A stretch of DNA of 63,804 nt, the filler included, from Trichomonas gallinae (Eukaryota): assembly GCA_008369845.1 (NCBI GenBank). It is 10 parts of 10 records of this genome, joined end to end, with 100 filler letters (N's around TTAATTAATTAA, not from the genome) between each part and the next. Parts side by side here need not be neighbours in the genome. Positions count along the whole stretch, not along the records: positions 61,068 to 62,503 come from MRSU01001485.1; 9 more parts are not named here. One strand, written 5' to 3'. The translations under genes and the position numbers were made by a program. This document shows, piece by piece, positions 17,480 through 62,503 of this stretch; the stretch's first letter is position 1; each line of letters begins with the position of its first letter. The notes under the pieces were generated by a model that worked only from the letters and a program-made list of their open reading frames with translations, did no database searches and was not told the origin of the DNA.

Positions 17480-20400
17480 TTATGGTTCAACGATGTAAGT
17501 GAACATCTTGCTTGCTTTCACGTCAATCTCACCTCTTTCTTTGATTTCAAACTGCTGCCCGTAGATGAGTTCGTAGACGGGCCTAGAAATGTGGACTTTC
17601 ATTGGCACACCGTGATGTTCCATTTCATGTGCTATATTAATTGCTGGGCCAAGGATCTCAAATGTTGGTTTTTCTGTTCCAATGATTCCAGCAACGATTG
17701 GACCGCCTGTATTGACACCAACTCTGATTCTTAGATTTTCTTTTTCGCTTTCATCAATTTCTAAGAGTTTCTTGATGAAGCAGCAGCCAGAATCAACAAC
17801 CTCCTTTGCATGTATCGAAGGCTGATTGATTTCATCGAAAATGCCACCAGCTGCCATGTAGCAATCTCCTATGCATTTGATTTTTGTCATTGTTTTGTGG
17901 GAATTTGTTATAGCGTCAAATTCTTTGAACATAATATTCAGCATTCTCATGACATATTGAGCATCATGGGATCCACACCATGGTGTGAACTCAACAACAT
18001 CAAGGAAGAGGATTGTTGCGGACTGAACAGCGAACGAAATGTTCTTTTCGCCAGCTTGTACTCTTGGAACTAACATTGCCGGCAAAATTGATGCAAGCAT
18101 GGCATCTGACTTCTTCTTCTCGTCAGCGATCATCTTTTCATGCATAATGTTAAGAGTGCTGTCTCTTCCTGAGTAAATTCTTCGTCCACTGATGCAGTTT
18201 GTTGTGAAGTCCAGATAGATTTTGTCGGAATTTTCTTTCGTGTAAATCAATGAACAAGCATTTGTAAAAACTTTCTCGAGTTTTTCATTTGATGTGAATC
18301 TTTGCTCAGTGAAGAATTCTCTGATATTCTTGTCTTTCATTTCTTCTTGTTTCAGTCCAAACATTTCTTCGAAAGCATTATTCACTGAGATAATCTTTAA
18401 TGTTTCTTCCTGTGTGACAATAACAACTTCGTTGAGTTTGTTGACGATTTCGTTCGAAAATGATGCATGTCTCTCAGCAGTGTCTTCAGCTGTGTAATTG
18501 TAGTTTCCCGACAAAAGATCCATGATTCTGTGGTTGTTCATGATAGACATAGGTGGACATCTCAAGAACAATCTCAAGCAGAATTTGAGATGAGCATTTT
18601 CATTGACAACAAGGAAAACAATAATCAAAGAAATCACAAATGTCAAAGAAATGAAAACTCCTGCATAAACATCGAGATTGTCGCCTTCCTCCTTGATGTT
18701 ACCTATAATGATTGGTACAATCAATTGACTTGCTGGAGCGAAAAATGATTCGTAAAGTTCAACAGGACCAATTTGCCAAAGTTGCTGCAAGGCCATTTCC
18801 GCTGCATCTGGGTAAACAACTGGCGCGTTCTTCATGTTCACGACATATTTCTTGACGATTGATGTCGCGATGAGGAACTGTTGGGCAGCTGAGAAGCAGT
18901 GGCAGCTGTCCATTACTGTGACTGGAGGTTTTTCTACTCCAGGGCAAACTAATTCATTGGATGCGCGAGCAATTTCAGCTTCCATTCTTGTAAATGGAAC
19001 CTCTCTTGGATCTGGTCCTCCGAGTCTGATTTCCTGGAAGTTTTGAACGAGAACAGGAAGGTTGTATTCAACGAAATCAATGTCCTTCTCTAAGTCGATA
19101 ATCGAATCAGCATATTTAGGATCATATTTCGCCAGTGCAATCTTCAATAAGCCTCCAACAACAGTAAACATGTATGAATTTGATCCGAAGACGTAGTTGA
19201 TGTGATGGCTGTTGTACATTAATGTTTCTGATGCTGTTGAGAAAACATTGATACCCAAATAATAAACAGTACAAGTTAAAATCATTATTAATAAGAAGCA
19301 TATAAAATTGGAAAGTTCAATTGAAGCTTTAGAAGCTCCATCACTTATAGAGTTGAAAAGTTTGATGATGGACTCTTCCTGTCTGCTTAAATCGGACTCT
19401 GATGCATTATCTGTATTTATTGTCGAATCTTTCTTGTTGAGTTTGGCGAAAGATGCTGAGATTGCTGAAATAACAGTCTTCGGAAGCAGTGTCAATGCCT
19501 GGAGGATCTCATATCTATTCTTCCTGAGCATTCTGATCTGTGTGAAGAAAATAATCGGATAAACAATGACGCAAATTGCAATTAAAACAAAAGAAAGAAT
19601 CCTGAAAACAAACTGATAACTTTGGTCATTCTTCTTGATGAAGTTCAATAAAATATGCATTGATTCATCAATATTAGAATAAGCATGGTCAATGTTGTTC
19701 CTCGCTGTAAGAGAATCAACGCCACAAGCAACTGTTTCATCCACGACTTCGTAGTTCAGCAGTTTTCCGACATGGTTTGCAATCATGAAGCTTGTTTGTT
19801 CAATTGACGATTTCATAATATGTGGATTGTCTTTTTCGATGTATAAATAGAAGTCCACATTGTTTGCAAACAATAATGATCTGACTTCTTTCATGTCTTC
19901 ATTGTTTGGCATGAAATTTCTAAGTTTGCTCATATGCTCTGTTGCAATAGAAACTTGTCTAGCAATATATTCGAGACAATCTCTTGCTTTTGGAGATCCA
20001 CCGAGATACTTCAATGAGAAGCCTGGAACTAGCTGAAGTGGCTCCATGATGCTGTGTCCTGGATTCCTTGGATCGTCAAGATTGTAAAAGAAGAAACTTG
20101 TTACATAACCACTCAAAATCGAAATAATGTCTCTCGTTTCTGCGATGCCTTCCATGAAAACGACTGGTTTCGAGAGATTGGCAGCGAAGAACTCGAATCC
20201 AATGAGCATAGCTATTATCGGACAAACAACCAAGAAGAACCAAGCAAGCATCGTTGAGCAAATCATATATCTTATCGCTGGAACTCTATGATTGTCAATT
20301 TGTTTGGAAATCGACTCCAATGCTTCGATATTTAATGAATCATCAATGATGCTATCTTCTGGGTTGATAGTGTCTTCTGTTTTAACATTAGTTATTTCAT

Positions 20401-22117: not shown

Positions 22118-23328
22118 ATATGAGAAATGATGTGACAAAAAATTCAAAAGATTTTTTTGGTTTTCAAATCTCATTCATTGATTTTAATCTGATTTTGACG
22201 TTATACGTGTAATATGCACAGTCCAGTAATACATGTCTAAATGGTAGCTTAGCACTTTCAATGGCCAGTCCCGCTAAAATTCATGTTTTTTTCTTATCAA
22301 AACTGCATTTCAATTGTTATTAAGTGGGATGGAAATTGGAATATTTCAAATCTATTGTTTCCTAGAGTGTTTTAATATTTTTGGAATTTATGCTCGAACT
22401 TTTGAATTTTTTCTGAATATTCTCATGAATTTTTTTATTTGAAATTCAGGATTTCTGCTAATAACCAGCTTATTACGACACGTTTTTTAAACATTTTCCG
22501 TGTTGAATGAATTGAAAAATATTGAATTGTGCCATGCTTGAATTGATAGAAATATTTGTTAACAAGCTTTTCATATGTTGATAGTTGTACATTATTCCAT
22601 TGCTTTAGAGTCATCCGATGACATAAATTTTTTCTTTATTTTTTCAATTATCCTTTAAAAAATGAAATTCAATTTTTGCATCCAAAATTCGGATTTGAAA
22701 GTTTATATTTCCTTATAGATGGGGTGAACGGGATGATTTTACATTGATTTACATTTCAAGCCTGTAAAATTTATGAATTCAAATCCAAATGTTTTTGTTG
22801 CTTAAGTGTGCAATAGTTTTCCGTGCTATACAATGCGTTATCAAAGGTAATCTGCGGAATCAGTAAATTCAATTGGGTTAAATTCTTCGTAATTTTATCA
22901 TCGGGGCATTATGCTGGATATACAATACAATATTTGCAAGAAACCTGTAATTTTGGTGTAAATTATTTCGGATATTCAATAATTTACAGGCTATGGTTAA
23001 ATTACCAAAAATTAATGCATTATATGATCCAAATTAGCAAATAACTGCAGGATTAAAGCTCATCTATATAATTCTCGCAATCAAAAATATTTTAACGACA
23101 TAAGACCATTTAAATTGATAGATAAGCATTTCTCATAATTTCTATCATCATGCCAATGTGTATTGACATGAAAAAAATCTATAATATTTGAATTCTTGCA
23201 TTTATGTTACTACACGAATAAAATGTTTTCTGCAGCTTACATAGAATGTGTAGATGCTATTTTTCTAGGTTTAAAATATGAATTTTGAAATTTAATAACA
23301 TAAAGAATTTATCCAAAAAATAATCTAA

Positions 23329-25113: not shown

Positions 25114-25603
25114 ATGATTCTTTGCGATTCCATACTTGTTCACACATCGAACACACTATGGTACAGGTACTTTCCAGAAGAACAGAGCTCTGTTACATTT
25201 GACACAGGTCAGCAACTTCAAAAAGAGTTAGGAAATTATTACATAAGGTACTTGTGGACTGTTTGGAACCATGTTTAGCGCTGAAAATATTACCGCTAGA
25301 AAAATCATAATCAATAGTTGTACTTACCCAACACTTGCATATATGAGATATGGAACTATTTATTTGACAAATTGTTTGTTGATTGAAAGTTCAGATATAT
25401 CATTGTCCGGGTCTTATGAGTTATCAACAACAAATCAATTGACATTTGGAATTGGATTTTTAACATCCTATAAATGTTTGGGGAAATATATTATCGAAAC
25501 AGAACAAATAGAATATTATCATAGCTTTCTCACATTTGCTATTTTTATATCTGTTTATCCAGTTTTGATTTTTATTATTATTTCATTATTCGAAGGTTCA
25601 TAA
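25114..25603 (+). pseudogene. Internally deleted, frameshifted paralog of the 25821 gene
   Basis: From ATG 25114 it reads ...LWYRYFPEEQSSVTFDTGQQLQKELGNYYIRY, then switches frame near 25252 to CGLFGTMFSAENITARKIIINSCTYP. These match residues ~3-33 and ~211 onward of 25821. Confidence 0.75.
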
Positions 25604-25820: not shown

Positions 25821-26774
25821 ATGGGAATTTGGAATCGATATTATCCTGAATTTTCAAATTATCAAATCTGCGATGATGGAAAACCTGTTGAAAAAAATGC
25901 TGGAAACTATTTTATACGTTATAGTACATTCGCTAACTTACAAAAAACTACTATATTATTAGACAAAAATGACGATCCAGCATTTTATTCTTACACAACA
26001 TTAGTATACGAATGCCAATTCCGTAATTTGACCCATGGCACAAGTCCAATGGTCATTATCCAATATGGAGGAGCGTGTGTTCTTTATCATATTTGTAGTT
26101 ATGACATTCAAGTCGATACGACTACAATTTCCCATATAAGAACTATACTGAAATCTAATGCAAACAAGAAGAGTTATTATTTAGAATCATCCGCATCGCA
26201 AATGTTTGGCTTTTGGGAACACCAAAGATTTGATGGTGGTGATCTAAAAATGAAAAGTGTCAATATTACAGACAGTTATACAAAGCAAGATAATGCTATG
26301 TATATCATGAATGCAACATCTCCATATCCAGCAGAAACCTCTTATTGCAGCTTTCATAATTGCAGTACAAATGGATATGATGGCTTCAAGGTGTATGAAT
26401 ATGAGCTTTATATTAAATATTGTTCTGTCACAGCTTGCACAGTGAAAATGCTGGGATTATTTGGAGTTGAATATAAAGGCACAAAGATTGATGTGAATAA
26501 TGTGTATATTGCTAGATGCACATATCCATATCTTGTTTATATGAGAACCGGAACATTTACGATGAGAAACAGTCAGATCATTGACAGCAGTAATGCAACT
26601 TTCTCCGGTTCTTGTGATTTTCAAACTTTTAATAAAGTAGATTTGACAGGAGATTTTTTGACAACGCATAAATGCTTAGGCAAATATAAAGATGAAACAA
26701 ATCCAATATTTTATGAACATATAGATCCAAACTGTTTAGTATTTATTCCTTATATATCTTTAGATTTGTCATAA
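25821..26774 (+). CDS. Hypothetical family protein (beta-rich, Cys/Asn repeats, possibly beta-helix)
   Basis: 317-aa ORF with paralogs on both sides. Motifs such as YCSFHNCS and CQFRNL suggest a beta-solenoid. Confidence 0.75.
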   Translation: MGIWNRYYPEFSNYQICDDGKPVEKNAGNYFIRYSTFANLQKTTILLDKNDDPAFYSYTTLVYECQFRNLTHGTSPMVIIQYGGACVLYHICSYDIQVDTTTISHIRTILKSNANKKSYYLESSASQMFGFWEHQRFDGGDLKMKSVNITDSYTKQDNAMYIMNATSPYPAETSYCSFHNCSTNGYDGFKVYEYELYIKYCSVTACTVKMLGLFGVEYKGTKIDVNNVYIARCTYPYLVYMRTGTFTMRNSQIIDSSNATFSGSCDFQTFNKVDLTGDFLTTHKCLGKYKDETNPIFYEHIDPNCLVFIPYISLDLS

Positions 26775-28351: not shown

Positions 28352-30271
28352 TCATGGCTCAGCTGTTTCATCTTCTGGAGCAGCTTTAAAGAATTTGATA
28401 TAAATGATAACACCTCCAATAACGAGAGCTACAACGATTACAATTCCCAGTATTACCAATCCAATGATCAAACCAGATTTAGTTGATTTACCAATACCTT
28501 TTTTACCTGTTGATTCAGAAGAGCCGTTATCAGTTGATCCAGAAGAGCCATTATCAGTTGATCCAGAAGAGCCATTATCAGTTGATCCAGAAGAGCCGTT
28601 ATCAGTTGATCCAGAAGAACCATCCTGATTTATTCCAGAACTTCCAAGCTGTTTTGAATTCGGATCAAATGGATCAGCAACAAAATTCATTTCGTGGAGC
28701 CTCATTGTCCGACAGAATCTCTCAGGATCTGGACACCAAGAAACTTGATATTCAACAGAATAGTATTTGCCTTCGTTAAATTTAAACTTCTTTCCGACAT
28801 TAGATTTGTTGCATTCTATAGTTCTGCTCCTTCCATTATCATCAATTTCTATGGTGAATGATTCAAAGCCATTGCATTTATATGCGCCGCATTCATTCAG
28901 TTCATTTACGTAAATTGATGAACCTGGGAGAAGCGCTTTACCTTTCGGACACACTTTAATTGGGACTTTATAATTCATGTAATCGAAAACTGATGGATCC
29001 TTTGGGATTGCATAATCATTTGGATTAAAGAATTCCTTGCTCTTACAATATTCGTAATTAAAATTAATTCTGCAATTAACATTATATGGAAAAGCTTCTC
29101 GACCTCCAGCATATTTGAAGTCGAATCCAGTATAGTCATCACCAATACCTGACTTTGACTTCACGATGTAACCATCTGGGAAGGCAACTGTTGGTGGGCC
29201 AAGTGCAAAGTTTTTAATAGGGTTTCCATCTATTGACTCTGGATTTCCCCAGACGAGTGGCTGACCCATTCTCCAGTTAACCTTATAAAAACCTGTGTCC
29301 ATCATTACAGCGAGAAGAGCATCTGTCATGCGGCTGTATGGGCCTTGACGCTGAATTGTTATACCAACCATAAGCTCTGTCATGTAAGTTCTTGTTTCAA
29401 GATGAGAACCAACCGTTCCACTACCACCACCATCTTCAAGTTCAATGCCAGCCGGGCAGCTCTGTCCACCATCACCAATGAATTTATCTATACCAAAACG
29501 CTTTTTGGCATAGAGCTGACAGTAGGGACCGACTAAGAATCTGAATTCCTTTCGATATTTTTGCATTTGGCAGACCATTTGTTTATGAGGCCTATTTGTT
29601 GTCAATGGATGGAATCTATCATAAAGATTTGATGAAAAACCTAATGCATGGAAAATTTCGTGAACACATGTATAGAAAAATTCATTATCCCATGAATTTT
29701 CATCCTGAGGCTTAAGAGGAATAGCTCTCGGATTTAAGAAAACAACACCTGATATAGGCCTGGAAGTATCAGGATTAATGTCAGTGAATCCAGCAGAAGC
29801 AAGTGTATTGCTATCACCACCATATGGGCGCGCAAGAATTGCCATGCACATGTCAGTATCGTAGCATAATACATTTCTTGGGGTGAAGTCATTATTAAAT
29901 TTGGCCATTGTAATCGGTTCTGTTTCCGGAATGACTTTAAGCAATCTTTGTAGGAAATTCTGTACATTCTTCATTGTTTGAATAGCACTGTTAAGTTTTT
30001 CTGCATTCAAAATATCTTCTCTGCCGCATTCCATGATATAGTTTTTAAAATGAACTTTTTGACCTGCGTATTTACACATGTTTGGATCATTTTCGACGCC
30101 CATGATCCATCGATATTCAAAAGACAATCGAATTTGTTCCCAAGTTTCTCCTTTCAATGAACGGTATGATCTTTTAGTATTATTATATTTGGTCCAGTTA
30201 ATTCCAGGGTCTAGCTCATTATGGATACATACGTGGCTCGTGACCAGCCGAGAGAGCAAGAAAACATTCAT
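28352..30271 (-). CDS. GP63-like (leishmanolysin, peptidase M8) membrane metalloprotease
   Basis: HEIFHALGFS zinc motif, ELEDGGGSGTVGSHLE..., ELM, DTGFY, C-terminal TM helix. ATG 30271 precedes the signal-like MNVFLLSRLVTSHVCIH. Confidence 0.93.
   Translation of the reverse strand: MNVFLLSRLVTSHVCIHNELDPGINWTKYNNTKRSYRSLKGETWEQIRLSFEYRWIMGVENDPNMCKYAGQKVHFKNYIMECGREDILNAEKLNSAIQTMKNVQNFLQRLLKVIPETEPITMAKFNNDFTPRNVLCYDTDMCMAILARPYGGDSNTLASAGFTDINPDTSRPISGVVFLNPRAIPLKPQDENSWDNEFFYTCVHEIFHALGFSSNLYDRFHPLTTNRPHKQMVCQMQKYRKEFRFLVGPYCQLYAKKRFGIDKFIGDGGQSCPAGIELEDGGGSGTVGSHLETRTYMTELMVGITIQRQGPYSRMTDALLAVMMDTGFYKVNWRMGQPLVWGNPESIDGNPIKNFALGPPTVAFPDGYIVKSKSGIGDDYTGFDFKYAGGREAFPYNVNCRINFNYEYCKSKEFFNPNDYAIPKDPSVFDYMNYKVPIKVCPKGKALLPGSSIYVNELNECGAYKCNGFESFTIEIDDNGRSRTIECNKSNVGKKFKFNEGKYYSVEYQVSWCPDPERFCRTMRLHEMNFVADPFDPNSKQLGSSGINQDGSSGSTDNGSSGSTDNGSSGSTDNGSSGSTDNGSSESTGKKGIGKSTKSGLIIGLVILGIVIVVALVIGGVIIYIKFFKAAPEDETAEP
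28509..28624. repeat. 24-bp coding tandem repeat (about 4.8 copies) encoding a (DNGSSGST)n stalk
   Basis: gttgatccagaagagccrttatca repeated. Confidence 0.95.
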
Positions 30272-32567
30272 TATTTGATCTAAAATTGAAAAAAATTGAT
30301 TGAAATTAAATTTGGTCATTATCATCAAATAAATCAATGATTGACGAGCTTTTGGTTTGGGAGAGACATTTGAAAAAAAAAAAAATTTTATTCTTTCAAT
30401 ATTTAAAAGGAGATTGAATTTGATAGTATCAGTTCAGTATAATTTTCTGAAAGTTCTCAGATCAATTTCTTATCTATTGGATTTGTTATGATTTATTGCA
30501 AATTAAAAGGAAGTCGAATATATTGAATTTTGTTAGAATTTCACACAAATAATAAAAAACTCCTGTTTATTTTCTTATATATAATAAAAAATTACAGTTG
30601 TTGATGGAAAAGTGAAAATTCAATGAATTGTTTTTATCAAATTTATTTAATTTTAATCAAACCTAGTATCATACGTGTGCATTGGCGTACGTATCAATTA
30701 TCACCAAAAATTATGTTTATTTCATGCTTTATTTAGCAAATTAATTGTAACTGAGCTTTTGTATATTCGTTCTCAATCTGTTCGTTGCCTATGTGTCATA
30801 GGAATAAGGTTGCGAACGCGTTTATCCTATTTCATCACTTGCAAAGAAAAAATGTTATCTTTTCAAACATAATATAAAGTATGGATTATATAAGTTATAT
30901 ATATATATTACACATGATCATATCAAATGTTTTCCACGATTAAATGGCCATTAAAATCATATCTTTGATACAATATCAAAATATCATCATGTAAAATTGC
31001 TGTTTTGACCAATAATTTTACACATGTTCAAATCTATGCAAAAATATAAATAAAACTATACATTGAAATGTACTAATTATCAAAAATAAAATTATTCCAA
31101 AAAGATGCATAACACCTATAAAACATGTGCAAATTATTAATAAATCGATTAGCATATTGGCTTCAAGGTGAACTTTACCAATCGAGCCACTTGTAACAGA
31201 TATATCTGATAAATAATGTTTAATTTTTTTCGGTTTAATTCTCCCAGTTAGTTACATATTTATTATTCGCTGTAGCAAAATTATTACTTGTTTGAAATAA
31301 AGGTTCTTCGACATCGATCGAAGATTTACATCACAGCAGCATTGCTAAATGATATCATGTAAGTGTTCCATGAGTTGATCATAAAGGTATTGATGATCAA
31401 CTTTGTGTGTGATTTAGTCCATGCAAACTCAAGAATTTTTGATGGTTAGATCGTGAAGATCATATTTATATATTTTGAAATTTTTTTTCCCGAGTGCAAA
31501 AATGTTCATAAAAACCATAGATTAGTAATAAGCATCCATAATCGTCTACCAAATTTATCAAAATAATAATGATAATAATTCATTTTTCGAGAATATCTTC
31601 GCAAAAAATAGTAAGAGATTTCGATTTTTTTTATTATCATTTTCAGAGCTTACTATGTACTATAATGATATTTTTGAACTTAACAAAGTAAAATAACGAC
31701 CCACATATTTTGAACTGTTTCAAGAATTTTCGATTTTCGGATGACCTCTCTTAAAGTAAGTATTAGAGCAGATAAATTATAAAAATTAAGCGAGAAAATT
31801 ATTTTTTAGATGATACTAGAACCACCTAAAAAGAAGTGCATATTGTTATCGAATTAGATCTCTTCAAAAAGTGAGCTTAAGTTTCTGGGCAAAACGATAA
31901 TTTTCAATACAGCATTGTAAAATTGAGACCTCTATTTGGTCGTGAAGCGGACCCTTAATTTTTGGACTCCGATGAATACGACAGAAATTTTCGTCGGTTT
32001 CCTTCTATGACATATCAACGTTACAGATTGACCTTCATAATTCTCCAACGACCAAAATTTTTGCAAAACTATAAAATAAAATTTGTCACTTTCCGGGAAG
32101 TGACAAAACATAATATACGATATATTATATATCTGTCAAGCAACACTACTAAGTTTGACGTCAAAACGCATTGTCAATTTTCCCCATTAAAGCATTCAAT
32201 TTAGACTCTTATTCCAATTTTTTGATAGGTATTTATTTGATCTTAACCCACAAAGTTATTTTTTAAGCTACACATACTTTGCGTAATAATGGTTAATACA
32301 ATGATATACGTATATTCTTATCTTTATTTTTTTCAAAGAATTAGCCTCAATTTAAAAATATTTTTTCAAATAACCATAAAAACAATACACACATTATTTC
32401 CTTTCGATTATTATCCATTGCAATTCAATGGTTGCCTATTTTCTATGGCAGTAACTCAATTAATAGAAAAGTGCATTAAAATTCATTGACCTCTCTTAAA
32501 AAATTCTAGGGCTTTAAAATTGGGTTTCTTGATAGGCTTTAAAATTTCATCATTTTTAAGTTGTACA

Positions 32568-36773: not shown

Positions 36774-38309
36774 TTATGACTGTTTATTGTTAGTTATTTC
36801 TAATGATCTTTCGACGATATCATAAATTCCGTCGTTAATCTTGATAAAGAAGTCGCGTGAAGGGTTATCATATGACTTGACGTACTCGCATGCGAGGCAC
36901 ATCCTGAAAGCGTCAAGAATAATAGATCTATCACCATGCAAAGGCTCTCTTTTTCCGATTGCAGTATTTCCATATCCGCAGGCTGCTGAGAAGCCGCATA
37001 GATCCGAGAGCAAGTTCGTGACTTCGGCTGTTGAATTGGTCCAAACACAACTAGGATAGACTTTGCCTTCTTCCCAGAAATCTATCGCGCAGCGTGCTTC
37101 AAAGGCCATGTCGAAGTCAACAGGAGAGAGAAGGTTTGAGCTGCCGCGTGGTAAAATAACGAAATTGTCTGGATGGCTGTTGCAGTGAAGCTCACAGAAT
37201 TCGTGATCAACATATGTTCCCCAGAGGAATCCTTGGCGGTGAATGCAGGTTAATACGCGACCACATTCATGCCCAATTAAGCAGAAAAGATACAACAAGT
37301 TTTGAATGTTGACTTCTTCACATCTGATGTCTTTGATAGCATCAAATATTAATTCATATCCAAAAAAGTTTTTCGACTTCAGATTTTCATCTGTAACATT
37401 ATTTTGAGAAGATATATCATCTGTGACATGGTCTTGAGCTTTAACTAGAAGATGTGAATAAGGTGCAACATCATAAAACTCATTTGATTCGCCATATACC
37501 TTGATATTTTGCTTTTCATATACTTCTTGGATATTCTTAGAGATTTGTTTCACTAAATCATCGTTAATAGAAGTAATAATTTTTTCAATTCCAGACAATA
37601 AATGTGTTTCTAGTCTTTTATCACCGACAGTCTTCATAACTACTACACATTTTTCAATATTTGGAACAGGAAAGCCTTCAGCATTATCATAAATCCAAAA
37701 TCCGAGTGGTGAATTTCCAGTTGAAACACCAACACGATTAAGCATAGCTCCTATACGATCAGTAGCATATGTTTCAGTAGCAGCTGTGCGTGGAAATGCA
37801 ACACCTCGAATTTCTTGAACTTTTTTGTCTGGAAACCAACTTGAAGATGCGTCTTGAAGTGTGATTCCTGGGAATGGAACTGGATCGGATTCAATCCACA
37901 TTCCACAGCCTTTCAAACGAATTAAAGTAGAATCTGGTTCATCTGATGGAATCCAATATTTTCCATCTTCAATTGCAATGTAATTGTCTGTTTTAGTATC
38001 TGATAATTTAGATTTTACAAGTGCTGATCTTCTTCCAGAGCGAATTCCAGAAAACGTATTCTCATTAAATGGAGATTTTGTTCCTTTAATTGGTGCTAGT
38101 CCATGTATTGCTTTATTAGAGTCATATGTTGGTACAACAGCTGGCATTACTGCAAAAATAATTAAATCTTCTGCTTTACCTTGTATTGGAACTGGCTCCA
38201 AAAGAGATTTGATGTGTTTTCCTTTTTCATCTGTTGCATCTTCTGGCGCCACAACAGTATCTTTAGATATCCATTGACCTGGTGTCCAAACAAAAGAAAC
38301 TTTTTCCAT
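36774..38309 (-). CDS. Atypical kinase-fold protein, SelO-like
   Basis: SGRRS, RLKGCG, RG......TE, GF.WG.....NSHPDNF and VDFD occur in SelO-like order. Confidence 0.6.
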   Translation of the reverse strand: MEKVSFVWTPGQWISKDTVVAPEDATDEKGKHIKSLLEPVPIQGKAEDLIIFAVMPAVVPTYDSNKAIHGLAPIKGTKSPFNENTFSGIRSGRRSALVKSKLSDTKTDNYIAIEDGKYWIPSDEPDSTLIRLKGCGMWIESDPVPFPGITLQDASSSWFPDKKVQEIRGVAFPRTAATETYATDRIGAMLNRVGVSTGNSPLGFWIYDNAEGFPVPNIEKCVVVMKTVGDKRLETHLLSGIEKIITSINDDLVKQISKNIQEVYEKQNIKVYGESNEFYDVAPYSHLLVKAQDHVTDDISSQNNVTDENLKSKNFFGYELIFDAIKDIRCEEVNIQNLLYLFCLIGHECGRVLTCIHRQGFLWGTYVDHEFCELHCNSHPDNFVILPRGSSNLLSPVDFDMAFEARCAIDFWEEGKVYPSCVWTNSTAEVTNLLSDLCGFSAACGYGNTAIGKREPLHGDRSIILDAFRMCLACEYVKSYDNPSRDFFIKINDGIYDIVERSLEITNNKQS

Positions 38310-43414: not shown

Positions 43415-45634
43415 TTAAACTGGTTCAACTGGTACATCGAAGTCATTAGCAAATGGATCCTCAATAGCGTGTTCGTTGAAGATTGGGTTATCATTTTCGA
43501 AGGCGGCATCATCTACACCTTCCATTTGTCCAACTTCTTCAGGGTTGAACTCGGCTGCCTTCTTTGTGGCCTCTCTGATGATGATTGCAGCTGCGATGGC
43601 AGCAGCAACAGCGACAGCAACACCTGCGCCAATGAAGATTGGCGTTGTCTTCTTGCTATTGTTTGCATCCTTTCCTTTTTGGGCATTTGTAATGACAATG
43701 AAATCATCATTTGGTTCAGCTGTTGGTGTTGGGAGAATATCTACGTATGTATTTCCGTCCTTAGTAATAACTTTGATTGTTGTAGAGTAAGAGCATGTAA
43801 TGTTACCGTTTGCTGGGTCAATTGTAGTGACACATGTGTAGGAAGTATAATTGATTGGCTTTTCTTGAGTGCTTGAGCTAGAGCTTGAGCTTGAATCAGC
43901 TGTGTTGTCTGGTCTGTTTGTGGGCGGTGGTGGTGGGATTGTTGGTGGAGGTGGGAATGGGGATGGTGAAGGTAGTGGGGTTCTTGGTGGTGTCCTCTTC
44001 CATGTGAAGTTGAAGTAAGCAAAGTTAGAGCTGGCTCCAAAACTGTCAACTACCTTGAGTATAATTGTATAATTCTTTTCTTCCAATGCTGGGATTGGAT
44101 AGTAGAATGTTTGTTCCTGCCAATTACCATTTGCGTGGATTGGGTCTTGGTTAGATTGACTAAATTCTTGAGATGATGGGGGAGCAGCAAACCAAACTTT
44201 TAAGCTGTCGCCAGAATCTATATCTTTAACAAAGTATTTAATGACGGCGATTTGATTATATTCAAATACAGGTATTTCATCCTTATGATCGATTTTGATT
44301 TCTGGAGCTTGGGAGTTTACGTATTCGAATTGATGTTCAATACGCTCTGATTGGACACCAAATTCGTCTGTAGCCCAGATGCGGAGTGTATGTTGTCCGA
44401 AATTAAGACCTTTCTCTCTGATAGAATATGACTTAAGGATAGTTTTTTCTTCTCCATTACATACAATTTTGTCTTTAATTGTGAACTCATAATCGTCATC
44501 AAATTGGTAAGAAATGTTAGCAAATGTATCATCCCAAAGTGTGCCCTGAATTTCAATGTAACTGCCCTTCAAGTATCTGCTCTGGAGCTGATTTTTATTA
44601 ATCTGCAATCTTGGGGCCTGATTAACAAGGAAATTCCTTGTATAAACATTAGATGTGAGATTTATATCATCATATTCTTTTTGCGCCCAGACTTTAACCT
44701 CGGTTGAAGATACACCTTCTGGTAGCCTAATATTAAATCCGTCTTTCTTGATGTTGTTTCTGAAGTCTGTTTTGCTATATGGATTTCTTGCTTTATATGT
44801 TGTTGTTATTCCATTTGTTGTGACATTCCAGTAAAGCATGACGGGTTTGTCAAAATCCACTTCTTTGATTGTAACTTCAATTCGAGCTGTCTCTCGGGGC
44901 AGATAATTTTGTTTGAATCTAGTTTCATCAACTGTTATAGTTGGAGGGTTTTTGAGATCCTGACCAACGCCAAGAAGAACGCCAAACGGAATTGTTTGTT
45001 CAGGATAGATAACTCTGTTCTTCCAACCTAAGGAGAATGTAGAGTCTTTCCCTTCCAAATGAGTTTTACTGTCGGCATTTTCGAAATAATGCTTATTTGA
45101 GTAATCGAATTCGCCGAACCAAAAGGTATCAACATTAGTGACACGAAAACCATCGCGGACGACTAAAGTTAAGTTGGTATTAGTTTCTTTATCAATCATG
45201 CTTAAGCCACGATTTCCATCGTACCATCCACATTCGGCATAGTCGTTTCTGTTAATCTTGACATCTGTGTAACTGGCGATTGATATTTTATGAGGATCTT
45301 CTCCAATATTTGTTGCAATGAACTCAATAAGGAGGTAGTTCTTGCCAAGTGGGGTGAAATTTGTTGATACTTTAATGCCATGATCAATAACTACACCTTG
45401 ATTCGTTCCAAGGATCTTCTGTGGAGCAAAGTCATCAACTTTAAGGATTGGGCGCCATCCGCTTCTCTGATATGCAGTGGGGAACATATTATATGAGATA
45501 TCAAAATCTCCTTCATAGCCTAGATTGCTATCATGTGGCCATGTAACCCAGCACCATTGGAAGTGATTTTCATCACCGCCGGGTAAATAATCTGGTATTT
45601 GTTGAAGCGAGAAGCTTGCAAGAAGTGCAAACAT
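43415..45634 (-). CDS. Bap-like type I surface protein (Ig-like repeats, Pro/Ser stalk, TM, NPxF/DPF tail)
   Basis: Signal-like MFALLASF, ~100-aa beta repeats starting P.I.I, Pro-rich stalk, Ala/Val TM, acidic tail with DNPIF and DPF. Confidence 0.85.
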   Translation of the reverse strand: MFALLASFSLQQIPDYLPGGDENHFQWCWVTWPHDSNLGYEGDFDISYNMFPTAYQRSGWRPILKVDDFAPQKILGTNQGVVIDHGIKVSTNFTPLGKNYLLIEFIATNIGEDPHKISIASYTDVKINRNDYAECGWYDGNRGLSMIDKETNTNLTLVVRDGFRVTNVDTFWFGEFDYSNKHYFENADSKTHLEGKDSTFSLGWKNRVIYPEQTIPFGVLLGVGQDLKNPPTITVDETRFKQNYLPRETARIEVTIKEVDFDKPVMLYWNVTTNGITTTYKARNPYSKTDFRNNIKKDGFNIRLPEGVSSTEVKVWAQKEYDDINLTSNVYTRNFLVNQAPRLQINKNQLQSRYLKGSYIEIQGTLWDDTFANISYQFDDDYEFTIKDKIVCNGEEKTILKSYSIREKGLNFGQHTLRIWATDEFGVQSERIEHQFEYVNSQAPEIKIDHKDEIPVFEYNQIAVIKYFVKDIDSGDSLKVWFAAPPSSQEFSQSNQDPIHANGNWQEQTFYYPIPALEEKNYTIILKVVDSFGASSNFAYFNFTWKRTPPRTPLPSPSPFPPPPTIPPPPPTNRPDNTADSSSSSSSSTQEKPINYTSYTCVTTIDPANGNITCSYSTTIKVITKDGNTYVDILPTPTAEPNDDFIVITNAQKGKDANNSKKTTPIFIGAGVAVAVAAAIAAAIIIREATKKAAEFNPEEVGQMEGVDDAAFENDNPIFNEHAIEDPFANDFDVPVEPV

Positions 45635-48718: not shown

Positions 48719-49930
48719 ATGAAATCTGTAAATATTGTAATAATTCGATGGAAAATGGGCACAGAGAAAATAAAAGTAGGCCACAATGACACAATTGGGA
48801 CTCTTATTAAGTACATGACAAATAAATTTAATATTGAAGAAGACATTCAAACATTGACTCAAGAAAGAACGAAAACAGTTATTCAAAAGAGAGCTAAACT
48901 ATCGAGTCTCGACATAGAAAATGGTGAGATATTTATTATGCAAATTCCTTCAGATTCAAATTCATCAAATGATAAAACTTTGTCAAATCAAAATAACACG
49001 AATACACAAAGCTCTAGCAATGTTGTAACACTGGAACAATTACAAGTTGTTCATCCTACAATTAAATATCAAAAATATCAAGATTTAACACTAAAAAGAG
49101 TGCTATTTCCTATGCAAGAAATGGATAGAATAGGCAAAATAAGTAATTCCCTCCACTTCAATTCTACTCAAATCTTCTTTTTATACGGAACTCAACCAAA
49201 TAACGCAGCTATGCGTATTCATTCTGTTTCTCTGCCTTCACAAGAATGCTCAAATAATAATTTTCAGGTAAATGAGATGCATATTAAGGATTCATATCAT
49301 GTTGCACAGATTTGCGGCTTAAAATTTTTAGGATATTTAATTATTGCACCAAAAACAGAATCCATTGTTGCTCCATCCTTGTTCATCAGACTTATTGGCT
49401 TAATCCCACAAGATATCAATGAAATTATAATATTAAGATCTTTATCAACATTAAAGTCAATGGTTGATTCTGTTTCATGCGAGATGGATGCTTTTTATGT
49501 TAATAAGCAGTTCATTGATTTATATAGAGCTGGAGTTTTCACTGGAGAAACAACAGATAAATGTTTAATTACAAAAGAAACAGTAAATGCTGGTACAAAG
49601 ATAACGAAAGAAGTTGAGATACCATTCTTTGTAACACCAATCGCCATAAAATACAAAAATGGCTGGTTTCCAACAAATTCTTTTCCATTTCAGTGTTTTT
49701 ATCCTACAGTTGCTGATTTCGTTAGTCAAGCCTACAAATATTTTGATGTTCCAGATTATATAAGATATCTGGACTTTAATTTCCTTTTATATCTTTGCAC
49801 AATCTTATCAAGAGAAGATGAAGTACCGCTTTTCGTTAGAAAATGCATCGACAAAGAAAGTGTACCAGATTCAATACTAGTTAAAATGGAAGATATGATT
49901 GATGCACCTCTTAGAAAATTAATGAGATAA
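48719..49930 (+). CDS. NPL4-like protein (ubiquitin-like N-terminus plus MPN-like domain)
   Basis: IIR.KMG..KI......L....LSSL.I.NGEI..., then FLYG.....IHSV.LP.QE....VA..CGL..LGY, ..AF.V..Q...L, FP....P. Confidence 0.7.
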   Translation: MKSVNIVIIRWKMGTEKIKVGHNDTIGTLIKYMTNKFNIEEDIQTLTQERTKTVIQKRAKLSSLDIENGEIFIMQIPSDSNSSNDKTLSNQNNTNTQSSSNVVTLEQLQVVHPTIKYQKYQDLTLKRVLFPMQEMDRIGKISNSLHFNSTQIFFLYGTQPNNAAMRIHSVSLPSQECSNNNFQVNEMHIKDSYHVAQICGLKFLGYLIIAPKTESIVAPSLFIRLIGLIPQDINEIIILRSLSTLKSMVDSVSCEMDAFYVNKQFIDLYRAGVFTGETTDKCLITKETVNAGTKITKEVEIPFFVTPIAIKYKNGWFPTNSFPFQCFYPTVADFVSQAYKYFDVPDYIRYLDFNFLLYLCTILSREDEVPLFVRKCIDKESVPDSILVKMEDMIDAPLRKLMR

Positions 49931-50388: not shown

Positions 50389-51564
50389 ATGGAAAATTCT
50401 TTTTCTTTGTTTCAGCACGTCCAGATCAATGCGTTTCAATTCAGGACGAACTTCTTGTTGGTGATCATTGTATGGATTTCTTCCTTTTCTATTGGAATGA
50501 TTTTTGGAATCTTTGGTCCTTTCAAATTAAGTCATGATTACTTCAATATAGATGATATATCGGATTATGGAATCGATTTCAGGGTTATGCAGAATATTTA
50601 TTTCCTTGCAGCAGCAATTGGTGAATTTTTGCCTTTGTCATTTAAGAATGTTGGAAGGCATGTATCTTTAGTTTGCATTATTGCTGTTCATATAGTTTTT
50701 CTCATAGTATATATTATTTTTTGCTCATCACAAATGATTTCTGTACTAATTCGCTTTACGGAAGGTCTTATAATGGGCATATTATCATCATTTTGTCCAA
50801 TATTGCTTGCAGAAATCGAGTATGAAAATAATAATATTTTATCTTCAACGCATTTATTATTTTATCCATTAGGTTTATTGATTTCACAACTAAGTGGTGA
50901 ATATTCCATCTATTTTATGATAGCATTCGCAGTTTTGCAGATTTTATTGTTAATAATTTTTGAATTTGATACAAATCGCGATTACTTTGAAAAATTTTCA
51001 TTTGATGAACCATTTAATGTAAGTATTGATAGAATTGTCATGGTTTCGATTGTTTTAATTCCATCAATTTTATCTGGCGTTTATTCATATCAAACTTATA
51101 TATCACAGTACAACTCGTACGATGAATCATACAAATGCATTCTAAGTCTTGTATTAACAACTCCACTCTTCTTAATATTTTCAAACATTGAAATTTTAGG
51201 CTTCTTCATGATAATGGTATCATTCATGCTGTGTGCATATTCAAGCTACTCAATTTACACCAACAACATCAATGAATACACTTTCATATTAAATTTCATT
51301 GGCCAAGGACTAGGAAAGCAGTCTGCACTATGGAGAGAGGTTTACGACGACTCCGCCTTCGAAGACCAAACGAACAACTTCTTTATGCTCGTTGCCGGAT
51401 CAATGAGGTGGCTATCTGCCTTCTTCGTTATTGTTGGCTTCCCGAATGAATTTGATCCATTCTCTAAGGTCGTCATTAATCCTACAGGATCCATGCTGTT
51501 TTTAGCCATGGACATTGTTGGCTGCATTGCTCTTCTTTATCCAATCTATAAAACTCTTCTGTGA
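50389..51564 (+). CDS. Divergent MFS (sugar-porter-like) transporter
   Basis: About 10-12 hydrophobic segments, ..VGRH.. loop, IRFTEGL.MG..S...PILLAEI. Confidence 0.75.
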   Translation: MENSFSLFQHVQINAFQFRTNFLLVIIVWISSFSIGMIFGIFGPFKLSHDYFNIDDISDYGIDFRVMQNIYFLAAAIGEFLPLSFKNVGRHVSLVCIIAVHIVFLIVYIIFCSSQMISVLIRFTEGLIMGILSSFCPILLAEIEYENNNILSSTHLLFYPLGLLISQLSGEYSIYFMIAFAVLQILLLIIFEFDTNRDYFEKFSFDEPFNVSIDRIVMVSIVLIPSILSGVYSYQTYISQYNSYDESYKCILSLVLTTPLFLIFSNIEILGFFMIMVSFMLCAYSSYSIYTNNINEYTFILNFIGQGLGKQSALWREVYDDSAFEDQTNNFFMLVAGSMRWLSAFFVIVGFPNEFDPFSKVVINPTGSMLFLAMDIVGCIALLYPIYKTLL

Positions 51565-59719: not shown

Positions 59720-60967
59720 TTAGACAATATTTTCGACATCATCGCTATTGTCTCCTTGATTCCTCTTATTGAAAATGAGGACAACGACAACTACGACGAT
59801 GATTGCAATAAGGATAACTATCAAAATTACAACTGGAATGATCCAATTTGCAATTTCTCCATCATCGTCATCAGATGGTGTTATAATATTTTCTCCTGAT
59901 GAATATGTGATTGTTGTTGTGACAGGTGTTGAAACTCTAGCTCCTTCGTTATTGAATACATAAACCTTGAGGCTGGAAGATCCAGTTTCAGGTGGTGTTT
60001 CTGGAGTGGAGATATTCAGCTGAACAATTTGTGAAGTTGTTGTATCAGAGCGGATCTTCCTGATTGATGATGGGTATGATATTCTTTCGTCAGAAACAGG
60101 ATTAATTTTACCATCATCGAACGAATATCCGTATTTAGTCTTAGATTTCCAATCAGACTCTAAGTTAGACATTCTGAATGTAACAATGATATCTTCACCG
60201 CCTTTGAACATGTGATCAGTTCCGCCATTAATAGTTAAGTTATTAACTTTGATTGTTTGCCTGAATGTGAACTTATCTGTGGATGTGACTGTGGATGACT
60301 GCCTAGCAAGATCGGTAAATCTCATTTTGAGTAATTTCTGTCCGGCTGTATCTTCAGTCTCTGGGACAGTGATTGATAAAGTATACTGATCAGTCTTACC
60401 CGCAACAGCTACTGGTGTGTTTGTCGCTGTGATCATTGTAACTGTTTCTTCAGCTGAAGAAACAAATCCGTAAGAGATTGTTGCCTTTTCGATCATATAG
60501 AAGTAGCTGGTTGTAATTAAAACTGTAATTGACTCGCCGACAATGTAAGATGCAGGCTGAGAATCGGTGACAGATGTAACTGAGGGAACTGGAACAATTT
60601 GAACATCGATTGTTTTTTCAATTATTGGCGTAGTTGAACTAGCTGAATTGAACCAACCAAGAGTGACTGCAGATACTAAAGCTGTTTGTTTAGGATATAC
60701 AATAGTTATTGCACCTGAGGAAATAGTGATTGTTTGCGTAGAATAATCTCCATTTCCCAATTTGTACTTGAGAGTTTTATCATCATAAAAGGAATGAACG
60801 TCGCAAGTCAAGGAAATAGAACCAACCGAAGAAAAAAGTGAAGAAGAAGGAGCATCGCAGGATATTGGATAGAGATGTTGTTCAGAAACTTTGATAACAA
60901 AATCAGATGGGAAGATATCGGAAGAGGATGTGCTGGACTCGCTGTAACTTGTCAGAAGTTTGTAGCT
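59720..60967 (-). CDS. Type I membrane surface protein (Ser/Thr-rich Ig-like repeats), 5' end in gap
   Basis: The frame stays open 52 codons upstream of the track's 60811 start, up to the gap. Strong TM helix WIIPVVILIVILIAIIVVVVVVLIF and a short acidic tail. Confidence 0.85.
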   Translation of the reverse strand, partial: SYKLLTSYSESSTSSSDIFPSDFVIKVSEQHLYPISCDAPSSSLFSSVGSISLTCDVHSFYDDKTLKYKLGNGDYSTQTITISSGAITIVYPKQTALVSAVTLGWFNSASSTTPIIEKTIDVQIVPVPSVTSVTDSQPASYIVGESITVLITTSYFYMIEKATISYGFVSSAEETVTMITATNTPVAVAGKTDQYTLSITVPETEDTAGQKLLKMRFTDLARQSSTVTSTDKFTFRQTIKVNNLTINGGTDHMFKGGEDIIVTFRMSNLESDWKSKTKYGYSFDDGKINPVSDERISYPSSIRKIRSDTTTSQIVQLNISTPETPPETGSSSLKVYVFNNEGARVSTPVTTTITYSSGENIITPSDDDDGEIANWIIPVVILIVILIAIIVVVVVVLIFNKRNQGDNSDDVENIV

Positions 60968-61067: not shown

Positions 61068-61132
61068 GCCTGCTTGCCCTTCTGGTGCTGATTCTGGTTC
61101 TGCTTGCCGTGTGCTTGTCTCTTGTTGGACAT
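61068..61132 (-). CDS. Microprotein family copy 1 (3' end in gap)
   Basis: ATG 61132 gives MSNKRQAHGKQNQNQHQKGKQ(A), preceded by Inr-like TCATTTTTAA. Confidence 0.8.
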
Positions 61133-61533
61133 TTAAAAATGATGTGAATACTCGACAGCTAATCGGATGTAAACAAAATCACTTCACGAAGATGTTGGCA
61201 GAAAATTCAGGGTCTCATCGTTAAAAAGATTTTTTTGTCACTTTCCAAATTTTTGTTAGAATTCTCAAATTTACAACACATAAAAATATCTCGCTCATTA
61301 TGTTGTAAACACAGCATGCAGTATTGCGGACAAAAAATCGATTTTCAATTCGAGTTTCACTACTTCGAACAGACTGGGAAAAAAATCGTTCGATTTTTGA
61401 ATGTGATAATAATATGAGGCTCACAATGTAGCGAAAATTTTGAAAGGATGTGAAATTGATAAGATAAATTGACGCTGCCCTTTGTGTGAATGAGATATGA
61501 CTGAGTAAGTGCTCAGTTCATTTCTTTTATAAG

Positions 61534-61671
61534 ATGTCCAACAAGAGACAAGCACACGGCAAGCAGAACCAGAATCAGCACCAGAAGGGTAAGCAGGCAG
61601 CTGCCGAACAAGCCGCTGCCCCAACAGCTGCTGCAGCTCCAGTCGAGAACAAGGAGCAGGCAAAGCACTAA
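61534..61671 (+). CDS. 45-aa microprotein (copy 2, complete): MSNKRQAHGKQNQNQHQKGKQAAAEQAAAPTAAAAPVENKEQAKH
   Basis: Inr-like TCATTT about 16 nt upstream, strongly biased codons (AAG, CAG, AAC, GAG, CAC), TAAA overlapping the stop, conserved paralogs. Confidence 0.85.
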   Translation: MSNKRQAHGKQNQNQHQKGKQAAAEQAAAPTAAAAPVENKEQAKH

Positions 61672-62011
61672 AACTACTAAAACCTGTTTTTACTCAATAA
61701 ACACTTGAATACTGTTTATAATTATTGATTTTTTTTTTTTTTTGAAATCTTTATTTTTTTGGAAATACAGCAACCTACATTACTATATGCATATAGCATT
61801 TAATGCATATCAAATGATTTATCATTCCACACTGTTGAATACAAGCTTGCAAATTATAACTTAACTTGCTAATGCTAGACATTGTATAATATAAATACTT
61901 ATGTCCAAAGAACATGAAAGCAAATAAATGCGTTCAGCACAAAACAAATATTGTTTCACGCAGAATAAATTGCAATACTATGATAAAATTATATATAAGT
62001 TAAACAGCAAT

Positions 62012-62174
62012 TAAATGTTTATTAAGTAAAAACAAGTTTTAGTAGTTTTAGTGCTTTGCCTGTTCCTTATTCTCGGCTGGAGCTGCCCCAGCCGCTGCTG
62101 CAGCTCCAGCCGAGAACAAGGAGCAGGCAAAGCACTAAAACTACAAAAACCTGTTTTCACTCAATTAACACTTA
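62012..62174. pseudogene. Fused inverted pair of microprotein 3' halves (copies 3 and 4) forming a long hairpin
   Basis: A minus-strand 3' half (stop 62048-62050) is joined to a plus-strand 3' half (stop 62136-62138) through a shared GCTGC. Neither has an ATG or promoter. Confidence 0.85.
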
Positions 62175-62430
62175 GCTAATGTTTAAAATTTAGTATTATT
62201 TTTCATCTGTTATTTCCTGCGAATGATCACTATTAATAATAGGCAATTGAAATATACTAAAAAGTTGTGCAAGTTATGATGCCGTCATACATTATATTTA
62301 ATACTGTATTAATCATTAAGCAATATTTGAACTGCTCTCAGATCATATTCAACAAAGATTACCATAAAAAGTGGAATAAGAAAGTGATCAAAGATCAGTG
62401 TTTATTGAGTAAAAACAGGTATTAGTAGTT

Positions 62431-62503
62431 TTAGTGCTTTGCCTGCTCCTTGTTCTCGGCTGGAGCTGCAGCAGCGGCTGGGGCAGCGGCTTGTTCAGCG
62501 GCA
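62431..62503 (-). CDS. Microprotein family copy 5 (5' end in gap)
   Basis: Reads ...AAEQAAAPAAAAAPAENKEQAKH*, with the conserved 3' UTR at about 62397-62430. Confidence 0.8.

What the first reader, a model, noticed from the sequence alone, without database searches (positions are those of the whole stretch)
61068..62503. Array of an unannotated 45-aa microprotein gene in alternating orientation
Seen: five copies in 1.4 kb arranged left-right-left-right-left, all missed by the ORF track because they are under 60 aa. The complete copy encodes a basic Q/K/H/N N-terminus, an Ala/Pro linker and the tail ENKEQAKH. Copies 1 and 2 are divergent and each has an Inr-like TCATTT. All visible stops are followed by a conserved ~35-nt 3' UTR, and several differences between copies are synonymous (GGT/GGC, GCT/GCC, AAC/AAT). 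Both contig ends lie inside copies, so the array is probably larger. Inference: a highly expressed, dosage-amplified, disordered peptide that I do not recognise as a known family.
Basis: partly seen in the sequence, partly recalled or inferred. Interest (0 to 1): 0.85.

Follow-up and report, generated by a model that had tools for sequence, protein, structure and literature searches.

The report
Multicopy Trichomonas disordered microprotein gene array
A Trichomonas parasite carries repeated, oppositely oriented copies of a 45-amino-acid gene whose relatives are listed only as hypothetical proteins in Trichomonas vaginalis; the predicted floppy, positively charged peptide likely binds RNA or chromatin and is probably made in bulk only under certain conditions.

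Summary
The array is real, with two corrections. The 1,436-nt contig comes from a Trichomonas species and holds five pieces in the order - + - + -. Only copy 2 is whole. Copies 1 and 5 are cut by contig ends. Copies 3 and 4 are headless tails fused into a hairpin, either by a deletion or by a library chimera. The gene is not unannotated: T. vaginalis has at least five annotated copies of a 44-46-aa orthologue (for example TVAG_121580, TVAG_370320, TVAG_370330; 68-73% identical), also in adjacent pairs. Coding function is well supported: 6 of 8 variable sites are synonymous, codon bias is strong, Inr and UAAA signals flank the ORF, and residues 1-21 are 81-86% conserved across species. Contig depths in one bird metagenome suggest roughly 20-35 copies in a relative. 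'Highly expressed' is not supported: three named T. vaginalis copies have RPKM 0 in one trophozoite dataset, though not every paralogue could be checked. No family, structure or literature match was found. Best guess (about 35%): a conditionally induced, dosage-amplified disordered peptide whose basic N-terminal half binds RNA, ribosomes or chromatin.

The parts
61068..61132 (-). Copy 1: codons 1-21 of the microgene, cut by the contig end
   Evidence: one synonymous difference from copy 2 (codon 19)
61137..61142 (-). Inr-like TCATTT of copy 1; a second Inr-like TCACA lies at 61143-61147
   Evidence: consensus TCA+1Py(T/A) from PMC4693282 passage
61133..61533 (.). Head-to-head spacer, 401 nt, 33% GC; candidate shared promoter region (inferred)
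   Evidence: several homologous variants of this spacer occur as contigs in run X1 (table 8)
61518..61523 (+). Inr-like TCATTT of copy 2
61534..61671 (+). Copy 2: the only complete gene, 45 aa, pI 10.0, GRAVY -1.51, GC3 0.59
   Evidence: orthologue of T. vaginalis TVAG_121580 family
61672..61703 (+). Conserved 3' block of copy 2; stop codon overlaps a TAAA polyadenylation signal, second TAAA 9 nt on
   Evidence: UAAA 10-30 nt before transcript ends in PMC13548475
61672..62047 (.). Tail-to-tail spacer between copies 2 and 3, 376 nt, 24% GC
62016..62047 (-). Conserved 3' block of copy 3
62048..62086 (-). Copy 3: headless tail, codons 34-45 plus stop
62082..62138 (+). Copy 4: headless tail, codons 28/29-45 plus stop, fused directly to copy 3; the pair forms a long hairpin
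   Evidence: (I4)
62139..62170 (+). Conserved 3' block of copy 4
62139..62430 (.). Tail-to-tail spacer between copies 4 and 5, 292 nt, 27% GC
62399..62430 (-). Conserved 3' block of copy 5
62431..62503 (-). Copy 5: last 23 codons plus stop, cut by the contig end

Best explanation
This is a multicopy gene family, found here only in Trichomonas and arranged in head-to-head and tail-to-tail pairs, that encodes a 44-46-aa basic peptide predicted to be disordered, whose conserved N-terminal half likely binds RNA, ribosomes or chromatin and which is probably made in bulk only in a stress or stage not sampled in standard culture. Shown: the copies and their orientation, conservation confined to the span from Inr to poly(A) site, coding constraint, T. 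vaginalis orthologues in adjacent pairs, and residues 1-21 (net charge +5) conserved far more than the Ala/Pro tail. Inferred: transcription from the Inr to a UAAA-directed poly(A) site giving an mRNA of about 180 nt, copy homogenisation by selection or gene conversion, amplification for dosage, conditional induction, and polyanion binding. Copies 3 and 4 are likely the remains of a head-to-head pair whose centre (about 585 nt, estimated from the copy 1-2 spacer) was deleted at a quasi-palindrome in the Ala linker, in the cell or during library preparation. Odds: real coding family about 0.9; the full mechanism about 0.35.
For: Coding: 6 of 8 variable sites are synonymous, against 21-27% expected, P 0.002-0.007. 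20 of 24 two-fold codons end in G/C, against 36% in 19 long window ORFs, P 3e-6. No ATG-started antisense ORF covers the gene. Orthologues: one hit among 1.84 billion representatives, T. vaginalis TVAG_121580, E 2e-4, 72%. The profile search adds a second cluster with TVAG_370320/370330. Accessions are consecutive (EAY10753/54, EAX94861/62, KAI5536108/09, KAI5541514/15), so adjacent pairs exist on two chromosome-scale contigs. Residues 1-21: 17-18 of 21 identical; tail: 11-12 of 24. Disorder: Uversky plot disordered in 3 of 3 tested, no F/W/Y/L/I/C in 7 of 7, AlphaFold mean pLDDT 59. Multicopy elsewhere: in run X1 two 60-nt contigs over codons 3-22 have depths 344 and 351, against 19-31 for flanking contigs, including a 13.7-kb one at 29. 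Joints there link head-to-head and tail-to-tail flanks. Conditional expression fits optimal-looking codons and many copies together with RPKM 0 in trophozoites. Junction: 5-nt exact and 13 of 16 imperfect homology between the two strands of the linker.
Against: There is no direct evidence of a transcript, a peptide, a location or a partner. None of the six identifiers occurs in the supplements of an iTRAQ proteome of about 3,100 proteins (I could not confirm the identifier type used, and single-peptide hits were removed). Lys is only 13-14%, low for an H1- or protamine-like binder. No Pfam, NCBIfam, PDB or Atlas link to any nucleic-acid-binding family. Iron depletion, a pseudocyst-inducing stress in PMC13750659, did not switch on the checked copies in the one table seen. 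High GC3 could come from GC-biased gene conversion between copies. The 8 variable sites come from non-independent, partial copies. Inr-like motifs precede 13% of all ATGs in the window (328 of 2,560), and only 5 of 26 long ORFs by my crude start calling. Contig depth is not a copy number, by the tool's own statement, and X1 is a single metagenome that may hold several strains.
Confidence: 0.35

Rival explanations
1. The peptide is a hydrophilin/LEA-like stress protectant, induced by cold, drying or osmotic stress outside the host and acting by bulk composition, not by a specific partner.
For: Small, GRAVY -1.16 to -1.55, rich in A/Q/K/N, no aromatic or large aliphatic residues. Multicopy and silent in culture. 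Weak LEA_6 match, E 0.015. Predicted low-confidence helix 4-26.
Against: The LEA_6 match is in 1 of 7 members and far below the curated cut-off, 15.9 against 27 bits. Gly is 2-5%, below the recalled hydrophilin criterion of more than 6%. Residues 1-21 are 81-86% conserved across species, which points to a specific contact.
Confidence: 0.25
2. One reading: a constitutively abundant housekeeping peptide, amplified like histone or ribosomal-protein genes, and missed by RNA-seq and proteomics because it is short and repeated.
For: Codon bias, head-to-head pairs, many copies. In the same RNA-seq table, one paralogue often carries most of a short ribosomal-protein family's reads, and 2 of 21 such genes read 0/0. 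The paralogue EAX93879 was not checked. Only 1-2 tryptic peptides are of usable length.
Against: Three of three named copies are 0/0, and the fourth (121570 or 121590) is at most about 1 RPKM, while each of four short ribosomal-protein families sums to more than 45 RPKM. A profile built largely from T. vaginalis sequences finds no PDB chain, although PDB holds a T. vaginalis ribosome (recalled, not checked).
Confidence: 0.2
3. A non-functional or selfish repeat (MITE-like element, fragment of a larger gene, or array inflated by assembly) with an incidental ORF.
For: Two of five pieces are fused fragments, the contig is short and ends in repeats, and no expression was seen.
Against: Synonymous excess and codon bias, protein-level conservation with T. 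vaginalis, and homology limited to Inr-ORF-poly(A) block with no terminal repeats. The only longer relative is the same peptide with an upstream ATG extension. Spacers are unique and the copies differ, so the array is not one copy assembled repeatedly. No Rfam family reaches its gathering score.
Confidence: 0.08
4. A released cationic peptide acting on bacteria or host cells.
For: Short, net charge +3 to +5, dosage-amplified, from a mucosal parasite.
Against: No signal peptide or hydrophobic stretch (best 15-residue mean hydropathy 0.17-0.72, from alanines only) and no large hydrophobic residues for an amphipathic face. Identifiers are absent from the supplements of PMC12289875, whose Data File 3 curates published phenotype gene lists.
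Confidence: 0.05

Closest known systems
T. vaginalis conserved hypothetical proteins TVAG_121580 (TVAGG3_0421660), TVAG_370320 (TVAGG3_0054310), TVAG_370330 (TVAGG3_0054170; UniProt A2FJN0)
   Same: Orthologues: 44-46 aa, 68-73% identical, same N-terminal 21 residues, multicopy, adjacent pairs.
   Different: The tail is reworked (about 46-50% identity). No function is annotated, and no paper text naming them was found. Their orientation in T. vaginalis could not be read.
SERF/4F5, HMGN and globular-domain-less protist histone H1 (small basic disordered nucleic-acid binders; properties recalled)
   Same: Small, basic, disordered, a conserved basic segment with a variable Ala/Pro/Lys tail: the model for how it may work.
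   Different: No Pfam or PDB match to any of them. Lys only 13-14%, and rich in Q/N/H instead.
Hydrophilins / LEA proteins (Pfam LEA_6)
   Same: Very hydrophilic, small, multicopy, apparently silent in normal growth.
   Different: Gly 2-5%, sub-threshold match in 1 of 7 members, and a strongly conserved N-terminal sequence.
Divergently paired multicopy histone gene clusters (architecture recalled)
   Same: Short intronless genes in head-to-head pairs, with conserved coding sequence and divergent spacers.
   Different: Both partners of each pair are the same gene; there is no histone homology; no abundant expression was seen.

Membership tests
T. vaginalis TVAG_121580/370320 hypothetical family | Significant sequence similarity over the full length | tested here: met
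   E 2e-4 among 1.84 billion proteins, 68-73% identity
T. vaginalis TVAG_121580/370320 hypothetical family | Multicopy, adjacent pairs | tested here: met
   Window contig; consecutive accessions in T. vaginalis
Trichomonad protein-coding gene | Inr TCA+1Py(T/A) just before ATG and UAAA near the 3' end | tested here: met
   2 of 2 visible starts, 4 of 4 visible stops; backgrounds 13% and 38%
Trichomonad protein-coding gene | Purifying selection on the reading frame | tested here: met
   6 of 8 variable sites synonymous, P 0.002-0.007; small, non-independent sample
Trichomonad protein-coding gene | Transcript or peptide detected | tested here: inconclusive
   RPKM 0/0 for three named copies; not every paralogue checked; identifiers absent from one proteome supplement
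Hydrophilin / LEA | Mean hydrophilicity above 1 (criterion recalled) | tested here: met
   GRAVY -1.16 to -1.55 in 7 of 7
Hydrophilin / LEA | Gly above 6% (criterion recalled) | tested here: not met
   2-5% in 7 of 7
Hydrophilin / LEA | Pfam LEA model above gathering score | tested here: not met
   15.9 bits against 27, 1 of 7 members
Hydrophilin / LEA | Induced by water deficit | not testable with these tools
   No such dataset reached
SERF/4F5, HMGN, histone H1, eL29, Lso2 | Profile or solved-structure sequence match | tested here: not met
   No Pfam match at E up to 5-10 (filters drop most above 0.1) and no relevant PDB match at E up to 10
SERF/4F5, HMGN, histone H1, eL29, Lso2 | Binds nucleic acid, nucleosomes or ribosomes | not testable with these tools
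   Needs binding assays and localisation
MITE / DNA transposon | Terminal inverted repeats and target-site duplications bounding each unit | tested here: not met
   Inverted repeats are the gene copies themselves; unit limits match Inr and poly(A) block
Structured non-coding RNA family | Rfam match at gathering score | tested here: not met
   0 of 10 listed matches reach it; 9 of 10 sit on the copy 3/4 hairpin

The most novel reading that the evidence does not exclude
A new class of dormancy factor: a Trichomonas-specific microprotein, amplified to tens of copies, that is switched on at entry into a resting stage and silences ribosomes or compacts chromatin through its 21-residue basic motif. 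The fused copy 3/4 hairpin would be a real locus producing small RNAs that keep the family off during growth.
Probability: 0.08. Interest if true: 0.8.

Novelty: new variant of a known kind. Interest (0 to 1): 0.42.

Why it matters
Trichomonads of people and birds have a debated resting stage and few known stage-specific structural factors. A conserved, heavily amplified microprotein with no counterpart found outside Trichomonas would be a cheap marker and a testable candidate for that biology. It also shows a blind spot: genes of 135-141 nt in near-identical copies are poorly served by ORF cut-offs, short-read counting and two-peptide proteomics filters. If the peptide proves to be a generic hydrophilic filler, the finding is a modest addition to the many expanded Trichomonas gene families.

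Tried and rejected
No whole genome is held for this window, so array size in this organism is unknown. Word-index search with the single peptide found no candidates. Exact look-up: 7 of 8 window proteins, including the peptide, are not in the collection. The 18-nt pattern scan of metagenome contigs gave 19 loci; 0 of 19 encode a relative, best tblastn E 1.9. Viral contigs (600 candidate stretches) and prokaryotic genomes (538) gave no relative. ESM Atlas gave no usable hit for copy 2 or P0007. PDB: 0 hits for the peptide, and one chance Ala-run hit at E 0.57 for the profile. NCBIfam: one spurious-translation repeat hit in 1 of 7 members. P0010, a 707-aa membrane protein listed in the cluster, shares no visible sequence with the family and was dropped before alignment. 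P0012 (86 aa) is the T. vaginalis peptide with an upstream ATG extension; only 7,994 longer candidates were scored, so this is weak evidence against fused forms. Sequencing runs: no RNA holder listed. Run X1 leaves 61740-61931 uncovered and lists no strand-change joint at copy 3/4; it is another strain or species and some joints were dropped, so this says nothing on whether the fusion is real. The other nine contigs show no long fold-backs, only short palindromes. The AlphaFold model (pTM 0.21, one helix) was too poor for a fold search. A Myb-site-like TAACGA at 61218-61223 is not enriched: 32 seen, 29 expected. Literature: no main-text mention of 12 identifiers; keyword searches found nothing on this family. 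Supplements with no hit: PMC9239101, PMC8698965 (file cut near 4 million characters), PMC13548475, PMC13750659 (holds counts only), PMC7268490, PMC12289875. Most of these are filtered lists, so they are uninformative. Three papers were not held: core promoter, polyadenylation, ribosome cryo-EM. Four look-ups of earlier scan findings returned nothing. Recalled resemblances to eL29 and yeast Lso2 were considered and not supported.

Full report
Setting. The window is ten contigs joined by N linkers. The finding fills one of them, 61068-62503, so there is no flanking context, and no whole genome is held. The genes of the other contigs are typical of parabasalids: Myb proteins, an Inr-binding-domain protein and a leishmanolysin. 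One window protein clusters with T. vaginalis TVAG_382030 at 93% identity, which places the source in or next to the genus Trichomonas.

Observation. Five homologous pieces lie in the order - + - + -. A 33-nt tail pattern matches four times, all in this contig, and never in 100 shuffles. Copy 2 (61534-61671) is the only whole gene. Copy 1 has codons 1-21 and copy 5 the last 23 codons, both cut by contig ends. Copies 3 and 4 are not genes. They keep codons 34-45 and 28/29-45 and are fused head to head without start, Inr or spacer, forming a hairpin of -59 kcal/mol as DNA. The two arms differ in sequence and have different 3' flanks, so two different copies were joined. The junction has 5 nt of exact and 13 of 16 nt of imperfect homology, because the Ala linker is quasi-palindromic. 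I infer a deletion of about 585 nt from the centre of an inverted pair. Five bases are too few for a k-mer misjoin (inference), so it happened either in the cell or in a library molecule. I cannot tell which.

Is it a gene? Both visible starts have TCATTT within 16 nt of the ATG, matching the Inr consensus TCA+1Py(T/A) (PMC4693282, passages); 13% of all window ATGs have such a motif within 25 nt (328 of 2,560). All four stops read TAAA (background 38%), and 29 of 35 columns from the stop are invariant. Beyond that, identity is at shuffle level (copy 3 was one base out of register there and was corrected). This fits a UAAA signal 10-30 nt before the transcript end (PMC13548475, section 23 and passages). 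The conserved 3' block is therefore most simply the polyadenylation region, and the conserved unit equals one predicted mRNA. Of 8 variable sites among the copies, 6 are synonymous (P 0.002-0.007). The other + frames give 1 of 8 each; one antisense frame mirrors 6 of 8, but no ATG-started antisense ORF spans the gene. Of 24 two-fold codons, 20 end in G/C against 36% in 19 long ORFs. That this marks highly expressed Trichomonas genes is recalled; the search listing showed no paper on it, and biased gene conversion is an alternative.

Relatives. A full phmmer scan of 1.84 billion representatives gave one hit, P0005 (E 2e-4), which is T. vaginalis TVAG_121580, with accessions EAY10753/54 and KAI5536108/09. 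A profile search added a cluster with TVAG_370320, TVAG_370330 and EAX93879. That makes at least five annotated copies in each G3 annotation; at most four accessions per sequence are shown, so this is a lower bound. Consecutive accessions indicate adjacent pairs on contigs of 34.7 and 40.2 Mb. Identity is 68-73% overall: 17-18 of 21 in the basic N-terminal part and 11-12 of 24 in the tail. No relative was found in viral or prokaryotic collections, and no named relative outside T. vaginalis; four ENA sequences are unnamed but nearly identical to it. Short ORFs are often uncalled, so absence from other parabasalids is not shown.

Copy number. One public DNA run, a bird metagenome (X1), holds the array. 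Laid on copy 2, cover is concentrated on the ORF and 3' block. Two 60-nt contigs over codons 3-22 have depths 344 and 351, whereas flanking contigs have 19-31, including a 13.7-kb contig at 29 that ends in a copy's tail (8 of 73 pieces shown). The ratio suggests some 22-36 copies. The tool states that depth is no copy number, and the run may mix strains, so this is rough. Several variants of the head-to-head spacer and two joints (61154 to 61502, 61681 to 62257) show both pair types in that organism too.

Expression. In the only genome-wide table reached (PMC4513698, supplement file 2 rows and methods passages), TVAG_121580, 370320 and 370330 have RPKM 0 under both iron-rich and iron-poor growth. 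The fourth copy is either 121570 (0/0) or 121590 (1.09/1.04). In the same table 21 genes for four short ribosomal proteins range from 0 to 2,924, with 2 of 21 at 0/0, so short genes can be seen. Limits: 100-nt reads on 135-141-nt references, repeated copies, one strain, and the paralogue EAX93879 has no known tag and was not checked. Six other supplement sets gave no hit. Most are filtered lists, and the pseudocyst paper's tables hold counts only. For PMC12757555, PMC5366954, PMC12539116 and PMC3490414 I saw main-text passages only; their supplements were not searched and may bear on expression. For PMC7845603 I saw the outline and abstract.

The peptide. 4.5-4.8 kDa, pI 9.7-10.3, GRAVY -1.16 to -1.55, no F/W/Y/L/I/C in 7 of 7 members. 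It falls on the disordered side of the charge-hydropathy boundary; residues 1-21 carry +5 and the tail about 0; there is no hydrophobic stretch for secretion. AlphaFold gives one low-confidence helix, residues 4-26, and a disordered tail. Pfam, NCBIfam, PDB and the Atlas give nothing significant.

How it most likely works. Steps shown: repeated short transcription-unit-like cassettes under coding constraint in two Trichomonas lineages. Steps inferred: many copies with biased codons but no reads in growing cells suggest bulk synthesis in some other state. Strong conservation of a basic Q/N/H-rich 21-mer next to a freely drifting Ala/Pro tail suggests a specific polyanion contact, such as RNA, ribosome or chromatin, more than a purely compositional role. 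I put this at 0.35, a hydrophilin-like protectant at 0.25, a constitutive peptide missed for technical reasons at 0.2, a non-functional repeat at 0.08 and a released peptide at 0.05.

Comparison and novelty. It works, by hypothesis, like SERF, HMGN or H1-tail proteins, or like hydrophilins, but it fails the sequence tests for membership in each. It is a member of an already annotated but unstudied T. vaginalis hypothetical family; searches for 12 identifiers in main texts found no paper, within a library that lacks most subscription journals. New here are the evidence that it is a true microgene, the second species, the alternating-pair architecture and the probable high copy number. T. vaginalis has a 34-nt small-RNA class linked to reduced expression (PMC7845603, outline and abstract), which leaves open the low-probability reading that the copy 3/4 hairpin silences the family.

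Verdict. Observation partly confirmed, interpretation partly supported. A real but functionally open lineage-restricted microprotein family; interest 0.42.

Noticed in passing
whole window: Ten separate contigs joined by 44 N + a 12-nt all-frame-stop linker + 44 N; gene order across linkers is not genomic.
   Followed up: yes
window 62000-62186: The fused copies 3 and 4 form a near-perfect long hairpin that scores below threshold on several pre-miRNA models by shape alone.
   Followed up: partly
window 61716-61753: T-rich run just after copy 2's conserved 3' block, T on the sense strand, so not a retroposed poly(A) tail; possibly a downstream U-rich element (inference).
   Followed up: no
window 59720-60967 (-): Open frame running off the contig end, with a C-terminal hydrophobic segment and short acidic tail; looks like a single-pass surface protein, only a weak TMEM154 match.
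   Followed up: partly
window 28352-30325 (-): Leishmanolysin (Peptidase_M8, GP63-like) gene, E 1.5e-26.
   Followed up: no
window 16146-16874 (+): Transcription-initiator DNA-binding domain (IBD) protein, E 9e-42.
   Followed up: no
window 17480-22174 (-): 1,564-aa membrane protein with PAS and adenylate/guanylate cyclase domains.
   Followed up: no
window 11220-13229, 25821-26774, 36774-38309, 43415-45634, 48719-49930, 50389-51564: Six ORFs of 316-739 aa with no Pfam match at E 1e-5; 25271-25603 looks like a partial repeat of the tail of 25821-26774.
   Followed up: no
window 56-1777 (+): WD40 gene with GC3 0.59, well above most window ORFs (0.20-0.43).
   Followed up: no
PMC4513698 supplement file 2: No gene is annotated 'protein L29' or 'protein L41' in the stored (cut) T. 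vaginalis table; these short ribosomal proteins may be unannotated or absent. The peptide did not match either family.
   Followed up: partly
P0010: A 707-aa membrane protein is listed in the same 90% cluster as the 44-aa peptide, apparently a clustering error.
   Followed up: yes
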